A DNA stretch of 64,000 bases, from assembly GCF_058153355.1 (NCBI RefSeq), contig NZ_CM177019.1; one strand, written 5' to 3'. The notes beneath the pieces were generated by a model, which saw only the letters and a list, made by a program, of their open reading frames with translations, was not told the DNA's origin and ran no database searches. Within the stretch, counting starts at the first letter, position 1, and each line of letters opens with the position of its first letter. The position numbers and the translations under genes are program-made. Positions 12,367-12,460 of this stretch are shown one piece after another.

Positions 12367-12436
12367 AGATGTTGTTCTGCCAATGTTATGCCGCTACACC
12401 CTCAACTTACGTTATCCCAACTTGTGACTGTTATTC

Positions 12437-12460
12437 GGCGCTCTATGGAGCGCCTTTTTT
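12437..12460 (+). terminator. rho-independent terminator after malG
   Basis: GGCGCTCTATGGAGCGCC hairpin followed by TTTTTT; the T-run overlaps the psiE stop codon on the other strand. Confidence 0.55.

What the first reader, a model, noticed from the sequence alone, without database searches (positions are those of the whole stretch)
12367..12459. xylE is absent: malG and psiE are separated by only 93 bp
In the K-12 gene order as I recall it, the xylose-proton symporter gene xylE lies between psiE and malG. Here malG ends at 12366 and psiE ends at 12460 with only a terminator hairpin between them, so about 1.5 kb including xylE is missing. This is a second structural difference from K-12 in the window.
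Basis: partly seen in the sequence, partly recalled or inferred. Interest (0 to 1): 0.3.

Follow-up and report, generated by a model that had tools for sequence, protein, structure and literature searches.

The report
Common xylE-less malG–psiE arrangement
This strain lacks the xylose transporter gene xylE that K-12 carries between malG and psiE, but a third of complete E. coli genomes, all four other Escherichia species sampled here and most related genera share that layout, so it is an ordinary, already documented difference.

Summary
malG ends at 12366, psiE (minus strand) ends at 12460, and 93 bp lie between them. K-12 has 1,890 bp there, including xylE.

The difference is a clean 1,797-bp indel. 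Its ends fall in a run of T's.

It is not a peculiarity of this strain:
- 1,785 of 5,426 complete E. coli genomes have the same contiguous malG–psiE layout, including CFT073 and IAI39.
- 3,639 genomes carry the xylE cassette, always at this site.
- E. albertii, E. whittamii, two further Escherichia species and most Enterobacteriaceae also have malG next to psiE. In them the same terminator hairpin abuts the psiE stop codon.

The empty site is therefore the widespread and probably ancestral layout, and K-12 carries the extra cassette. The window has no deletion scar. A real scar is visible in Citrobacter braakii.

One caveat remains. The cassette sits at the same site in the Citrobacter freundii group and Klebsiella oxytoca, and it is as diverged as its flanks. 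It is therefore old, and a scarless loss between the two T-runs cannot be excluded.

The 93 bp are more than a hairpin. They are the malG 3'UTR, which in K-12 gives the published MalH small RNA (101 of 104 bases identical here).

Verdict: low interest, already known.

The parts
11476..12366 (+). malG, the maltose ABC transporter permease and last gene of malEFG
   Evidence: The 296-aa ORF matches the NCBIfam MalG equivalog NF008231 at 609.9 bits over its full length. tblastn gives 100% amino-acid identity to malG of K-12 W3110 (annotated WP_001252058.1).
12358..12461 (+). Homologue of the MalH small RNA: the last malG codons, the stop codon, the 3'UTR and the terminator. The 5' end is placed by the published 104-nt length and is approximate.
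   Evidence: 101 of 104 bases match the same K-12 stretch; the differences are at 12396, 12444 and 12446. [quoted passage not shown] Conserved blocks such as TTGTGACTGT are shared across genera. No Rfam family exists for it.
12437..12461 (+). Rho-independent terminator of malEFG/MalH: 7-bp GC-rich stem, 4-nt loop, T7 tract
   Evidence: Found by the terminator scan and by the RNA fold. All 65 loci compared keep a perfect stem of at least 7 bp. The stem variants GGCGCTC/GAGCGCC, GGCGGCC/GGCCGCC and AGCGGCC/GGCCGCT differ by compensatory changes.
12455..12462 (.). Empty site. This is where K-12 carries the 1,797-bp xylE cassette. The breakpoint is ambiguous within the T-run.
   Evidence: The alignment to K-12 breaks here. 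The left match ends at window 12461 and the right match starts at 12457, so TTTTT is shared by both K-12 junctions.
12460..12870 (-). psiE, the phosphate-starvation-inducible protein, convergent with malG. Its stop codon overlaps the end of the terminator T-tract.
   Evidence: The NCBIfam PsiE equivalog NF002767 scores 287.4 bits and covers the last 136 aa of the ORF. RefSeq records annotate psiE as 411 nt.

Best explanation
The window carries the xylE-less ('empty-site') allele of a well-known presence/absence polymorphism.

malG and the convergent psiE are separated only by the malG 3'UTR. That 3'UTR is the MalH small-RNA region, and its Rho-independent terminator has a T-tract that runs into the psiE stop codon.

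This is the inherited and probably ancestral Escherichia arrangement. K-12 and other phylogroup A, B1 and E strains carry an extra 1,797-bp cassette inserted in the T-tract. The cassette holds the xylE promoter region, xylE and its own terminator.

The expected consequence is only the loss of the low-affinity xylose:H+ symporter. Xylose uptake would then depend on the XylFGH ABC transporter, which lies outside the window (an inference from established E. coli physiology).
For: Shown directly:
- The gene ends and the 93-bp spacer are as stated.
- K-12 has xylE between malG and psiE, and the indel is 1,797 bp with junctions in T-runs.
- 1,785 of 5,426 complete E. coli genomes have contiguous malG-psiE. 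3,639 carry the cassette, with one copy in nearly all, and in every record sampled it lies next to psiE. The two sets are almost exactly complementary.
- CFT073 and IAI39 have the identical 93-bp spacing. O157:H7 Sakai, K-12 and O26:H11 strains have xylE.
- About 65 of the 80 species loci put malG within about 90-230 bp of psiE without xylE. These include E. albertii, E. whittamii, Escherichia sp. E1V33 and Escherichia sp. MOD1-EC7003. The hairpin and T-tract abut the psiE stop codon in the same way.
- At this locus the window lineage lies outside both K-12 (xylE+) and EC332 (xylE-). It is 96% identical to each, whereas they are 98.6% identical to each other. One gain on the K-12 side is therefore more parsimonious than many losses.
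- Genuine deletions at this locus leave remnants. C. braakii keeps xylE fragments in a 382-bp spacer, and E. coli PCN061 keeps only the first 280 bp of the cassette. The window has none.

From the literature: PMC6896753 lists xylE among the carbohydrate transport systems in which the B1/A sublineage of E. coli is enriched.
Against: - The same cassette, with the same boundaries, sits at the same site in the Citrobacter freundii group and in K. oxytoca.
- The cassette is as diverged from E. coli xylE (82-84% nt) as malG and malF are (82-84%). It is therefore old, and no donor lineage for a recent gain by E. coli was identified.
- The cassette is bracketed by T7 and T5 runs. Slippage or microhomology deletion, or replacement by an empty allele through homologous recombination, would give exactly this scarless junction.
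- E. fergusonii and Salmonella could not be examined.
Confidence: 0.68

Rival explanations
1. Scarless loss. An ancestor of this lineage carried the xylE cassette and lost it. The loss came either by deletion between the T-tracts of the malG and xylE terminators, or by recombinational replacement with an empty-site allele from another Escherichia.
For: - The cassette is flanked by T7 and T5 runs, so the deletion product would be identical to what is seen.
- The cassette is orthologous and equally diverged in Escherichia, Citrobacter and Klebsiella, which suggests ancient residence and patchy loss.
- K. oxytoca has it while its close relatives K. michiganensis and K. grimontii do not. C. braakii shows loss in progress.
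Against: - It requires independent clean losses, or allele sweeps, in E. albertii, E. whittamii, two further Escherichia species, this lineage and the B2 and F phylogroups.
- The deletions that can be recognised at this locus are untidy.
- Five bases of microhomology is a weak substrate.
Confidence: 0.28
2. The first reader misremembered the K-12 gene order, and malG and psiE are adjacent in K-12 too.
For: None.
Against: The RefSeq annotation of K-12 W3110 shows malG, xylE, psiE in that order. So does O157:H7 Sakai.
Confidence: 0
3. Assembly artefact: xylE was collapsed out of the assembly.
For: None specific.
Against: The same 93-bp junction occurs in 1,785 independent complete genomes and in other species. 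The sequence is unique and non-repetitive.
Confidence: 0.01

Closest known systems
The malG-psiE junction of E. coli CFT073 (B2) and IAI39 (F), and of strain R32_14_1F
   Same: Same gene order, the same 93-bp spacer and the same terminator position. R32_14_1F is 99.6% identical over 2.1 kb.
   Different: The window differs from the B2/F-type allele by about 4% in the flanks, and by one body base and two loop bases in the spacer.
The K-12 malG-xylE-psiE locus
   Same: malG, its 3'UTR and terminator, and psiE are collinear at 96% identity.
   Different: K-12 has a 1,797-bp cassette between the malG terminator T-tract and the psiE stop codon. The cassette comprises 276 bp upstream of xylE, 1,476 bp of xylE, and 45 bp that include its own hairpin.
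MalH, the 3'UTR-derived Hfq-associated sRNA of malG (Iosub et al., RNA Biol 2020, PMC8081044)
   Same: Same position at the end of malG. 101 of 104 bases are identical to the K-12 stretch, and the terminator is the same.
   Different: Expression, RNase E processing and targets were not tested here. In this arrangement the sRNA's terminator directly abuts a convergent gene, which is not the case in K-12.
XylE, the D-xylose:H+ symporter (MFS sugar porter)
   Same: Nothing. It is the gene that is absent.
   Different: No homologue in the window. Genomes with the empty site also lack it elsewhere.

Membership tests
xylE-less (empty-site) allele of the E. coli malG-psiE locus | malG and psiE are convergent and contiguous, with no xylE sequence between them | tested here: met
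   The spacer is 93 bp. Neither the K-12 cassette nor XylE gives any significant match to the window.
xylE-less (empty-site) allele of the E. coli malG-psiE locus | Same junction as in other carriers: the malG terminator T-tract runs into the psiE stop codon | tested here: met
   The architecture is the same in R32_14_1F, EC332 and four other Escherichia species. CFT073 and IAI39 have the same 93-bp spacing by annotation.
Recent deletion or mobile-element excision | Remnants of the lost gene, target-site duplications, or terminal inverted or direct repeats at the junction | tested here: not met
   The window holds no cassette remnants. The ends of the K-12 cassette carry only a T-run, with no inverted or direct repeats of a mobile element. 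C. braakii L023 shows what a scar looks like at this locus.
MalH sRNA | Covers the end of the malG CDS, the stop codon, the 3'UTR and the Rho-independent terminator, with sequence homology to K-12 MalH | tested here: met
   101 of 104 bases are identical to the K-12 stretch. The definition is taken from PMC8081044.
MalH sRNA | Released by RNase E processing, bound by Hfq, and pairs with ompC/ompA through its seed | not testable with these tools
   This needs RNA experiments. The seed coordinates appear only in the paper's figures, so the effect of the 12396 G-to-A change on the seed could not be judged.
Rho-independent terminator | GC-rich stem-loop followed by a U-tract, with the stem maintained by compensatory change | tested here: met
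   The stem has 7 bp, 6 of them GC, followed by T7. All 65 loci keep a perfect stem, in three covarying versions.
Bidirectional terminator serving psiE as well | A U-tract after the hairpin on the psiE strand too | tested here: not met
   On the minus strand the hairpin is followed by GAATAACAG. The scan found no minus-strand terminator.
PsiE and MalG protein families | Full-length match above the curated NCBIfam equivalog cut-off | tested here: met
   MalG scores 609.9 bits against a cut-off of 261. PsiE scores 287.4 bits against a cut-off of 222.

The most novel reading that the evidence does not exclude
Two readings are not excluded.

(a) The xylE cassette may be an ancient polymorphism shared across species. 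It would be gained and lost repeatedly and without scars, by slippage or recombination between the T-tracts of two adjacent terminators. That would be a general route for clean turnover of a single gene.

(b) In xylE-less lineages psiE has no terminator of its own. Its transcripts may therefore read antisense into MalH and the end of malG. This would couple phosphate starvation to MalH-dependent porin and maltose regulation, a link that is absent in K-12.
Probability: 0.1. Interest if true: 0.35.

Novelty: already known. Interest (0 to 1): 0.08.

Why it matters
It matters little. It marks this strain as carrying the non-K-12 layout of the locus, which is probably the ancestral one and is shared with B2/F strains and the other Escherichia species examined here. 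It predicts that the low-affinity xylose:H+ symporter is absent.

It is a useful reminder that K-12 is the derived state here, so 'missing relative to K-12' is not the same as 'deleted'. The only mildly interesting side point is that the MalH sRNA terminator directly abuts psiE in these strains.

Tried and rejected
- Rfam on 12200-12600 gave only sub-threshold chance hits: TarB at 18.7 bits against a gathering score of 80, plus STnc320 and suhB. MalH has no Rfam family.
- A literature search for xylE + psiE + malG together found nothing. Most hits for xylE + 'phylogroup B2' were 'xylene'.
- The XylE homologue search was uninformative for finding a donor. At 90% clustering, the E. coli and (presumably) the Citrobacter proteins fall into one cluster.
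- UMN026 (phylogroup D, NC_011751.1) is not in the collection under that accession. The state in phylogroup D was therefore not determined.
- A search for mobile-element signatures at the cassette ends was negative. Cassette composition (GC 0.475; xylE CDS 0.496) is not clearly foreign.
- The single genome-contig scan did not return E. fergusonii or Salmonella among its best 80 loci, so those outgroups remain unchecked.
- A full cross-tabulation of phylogroup against xylE was not possible, because per-genome lists are not returned.
- The phylogroup labels of the reference strains (K-12 A, O26:H11 B1, Sakai E, CFT073 B2, IAI39 F) come from my own knowledge, not from a tool.

Full report
**Observation**

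The window has malG at 11476-12366 (+) and psiE at 12460-12870 (-). Both give full-length matches above cut-off to their NCBIfam equivalogs. The listed ORF for psiE runs on to a TTG at 12984, but the family model and the RefSeq annotations show the 136-aa protein.

The spacer 12367-12459 is 93 bp. It holds a stem-loop, GGCGCTC-TATG-GAGCGCC, at 12437-12454, followed by seven T's. The last two T's together with A12462 form the psiE stop codon on the other strand. The coordinates in the finding are exact.

**Comparison with K-12**

In K-12 W3110 the order is malG, xylE, psiE. There are 1,890 bp between the two stop codons: 371 bp, the 1,476-bp xylE and 43 bp.

The window aligns with K-12 through malG and the first 95 bp downstream of it. 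The alignment resumes at the psiE stop codon. The two matches overlap by TTTTT. The difference is therefore a clean 1,797-bp indel whose ends lie in T-runs (T7 on the left, T5 on the right in K-12).

The size is 1.8 kb rather than 1.5 kb.

**How common the arrangement is**

- Of 5,426 complete E. coli genomes, 1,785 have malG and psiE contiguous as in the window.
- 3,639 carry the K-12 cassette, with one copy in nearly all. In every record sampled it lies next to psiE.
- The two sets are almost exactly complementary, so genomes with the empty site have no xylE elsewhere.
- The 64-kb window itself has no XylE homologue.
- CFT073 and IAI39 have the same 93-bp spacing. K-12, O157:H7 Sakai and O26:H11 strains have xylE. 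The phylogroup labels for these strains (B2, F, A, E, B1) come from my own knowledge.
- A published analysis lists xylE among the carbohydrate transport systems in which the B1/A sublineage is enriched (PMC6896753).

**Direction of the change**

A scan of species-representative genomes with PsiE gave 80 loci.

In about 65 of them malG lies within about 90-230 bp of psiE with no xylE. These include E. albertii, E. whittamii, Escherichia sp. E1V33, Escherichia sp. MOD1-EC7003, Citrobacter koseri, C. amalonaticus, Enterobacter, Kluyvera, Klebsiella pneumoniae, Raoultella and Trabulsiella. The spacers are homologous, and the hairpin and T-tract run into the psiE stop codon just as in the window.

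At this locus the window is 96% identical to both K-12 (xylE+) and EC332 (xylE-), while those two are 98.6% identical to each other. The window's lineage therefore branches outside both. Over 25 kb it is about 95% identical to ordinary E. coli, which marks it as a deep-branching E. coli-like lineage.

Parsimony thus favours an inherited empty site, with a gain on the line leading to K-12-like strains.

Deletions that can be recognised at this locus leave debris. C. braakii ATCC 51113 has a 382-bp spacer with the xylE upstream region plus internal and 3' xylE fragments. E. coli PCN061 keeps only the first 280 bp of the cassette. The window has nothing of the kind. The ends of the K-12 cassette also carry no inverted or direct repeats beyond the T-run.

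**Caveat**

The same cassette, with the same boundaries, occurs in the C. freundii group and (with extra sequence) in K. oxytoca. Its xylE is 82-84% identical to E. coli xylE, the same as malG and malF.

The cassette is therefore old and not a recent inter-genus transfer, and I found no donor for a recent gain. Because it is bracketed by T-runs, slippage between them would give exactly the junction seen. So would replacement by an empty allele through recombination. I put about 0.28 on such a scarless loss in the ancestry of this lineage. E. fergusonii and Salmonella could not be checked.

**What the 93 bp are**

The spacer is the full malG 3'UTR. In K-12 this stretch, together with the last malG codons, is the 104-nt MalH sRNA. 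MalH is a processed, Hfq-associated RNA that down-regulates ompC and tunes maltoporin expression (PMC8081044).

The window's version (about 12358-12461) is 101/104 identical. It differs at 12396 and at two loop positions, 12444 and 12446.

All 65 loci compared keep a perfect terminator stem of at least 7 bp. The stem variants differ by compensatory changes. Blocks such as TTGTGACTGT are conserved across genera.

MalH has no Rfam family. On the psiE strand no U-tract follows the hairpin. How psiE transcripts end here is therefore open, as it also is in K-12.

**Verdict**

It is already documented in reference genomes and in the literature. Interest is low.

Noticed in passing
whole window (tested on 1-25000 and 5000-20000): The window is only about 95-96% identical to ordinary E. 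coli of several phylogroups. It is 98.7-99.6% identical to strain R32_14_1F (goat, Nebraska), and only 16-18 of 5,426 genomes reach 99% or more. It is 94.8% identical to Escherichia sp. MOD1-EC7003 and about 93% to E. whittamii and E. albertii. This looks like a deep-branching E. coli lineage, possibly cryptic clade I.
   Followed up: partly
window 1271-2986: A stretch of about 1.7 kb absent from Sakai and IAI39 encodes an IS110-family transposase (ORF 1348-2523). It appears to be inserted next to, or into, the SopA-family gene at 2992-4380, which matches only positions 1-448 of the 512-position model.
   Followed up: partly
window 21350-24778: A segment of about 3.4 kb downstream of lysC is absent from O157 Sakai. 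It encodes a protein with a PezT/zeta-toxin-like domain (21488-22423), an unmatched 266-aa ORF, and a protein with weak HflK/HflC-like matches (23253-24380).
   Followed up: partly
window 12983-13019 and about 12986-13088: A REP-like element upstream of psiE matches the REP copies in the K-12 malE-malF spacer. A stretch of about 100 bp here is missing or unalignable in B2/F-type strains. R32_14_1F and K-12 annotate a 144-nt hypothetical ORF in this area.
   Followed up: no
L023 (Citrobacter braakii ATCC 51113), spacer between psiE and malG: A decayed xylE. The 382-bp spacer keeps the xylE upstream region, two internal fragments, and the 3' end with its terminator.
   Followed up: yes
L007, L060, L062, L076, L036, L037, L041, L059: The malG-psiE spacer is a hot spot in other genera. 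ERIC-like elements are inserted inside the malG 3'UTR (the MalH region). An array of repeated REP-like units lies after the terminator (L036). L037 has a spacer of about 700 bp and L041 and L059 have inserts of 1.8-4.7 kb; the coding content of these three was not examined.
   Followed up: partly
L086 (E. coli O157:H7 Sakai): The current RefSeq record flags malG and malF as pseudogenes, although they have the full K-12 length.
   Followed up: no
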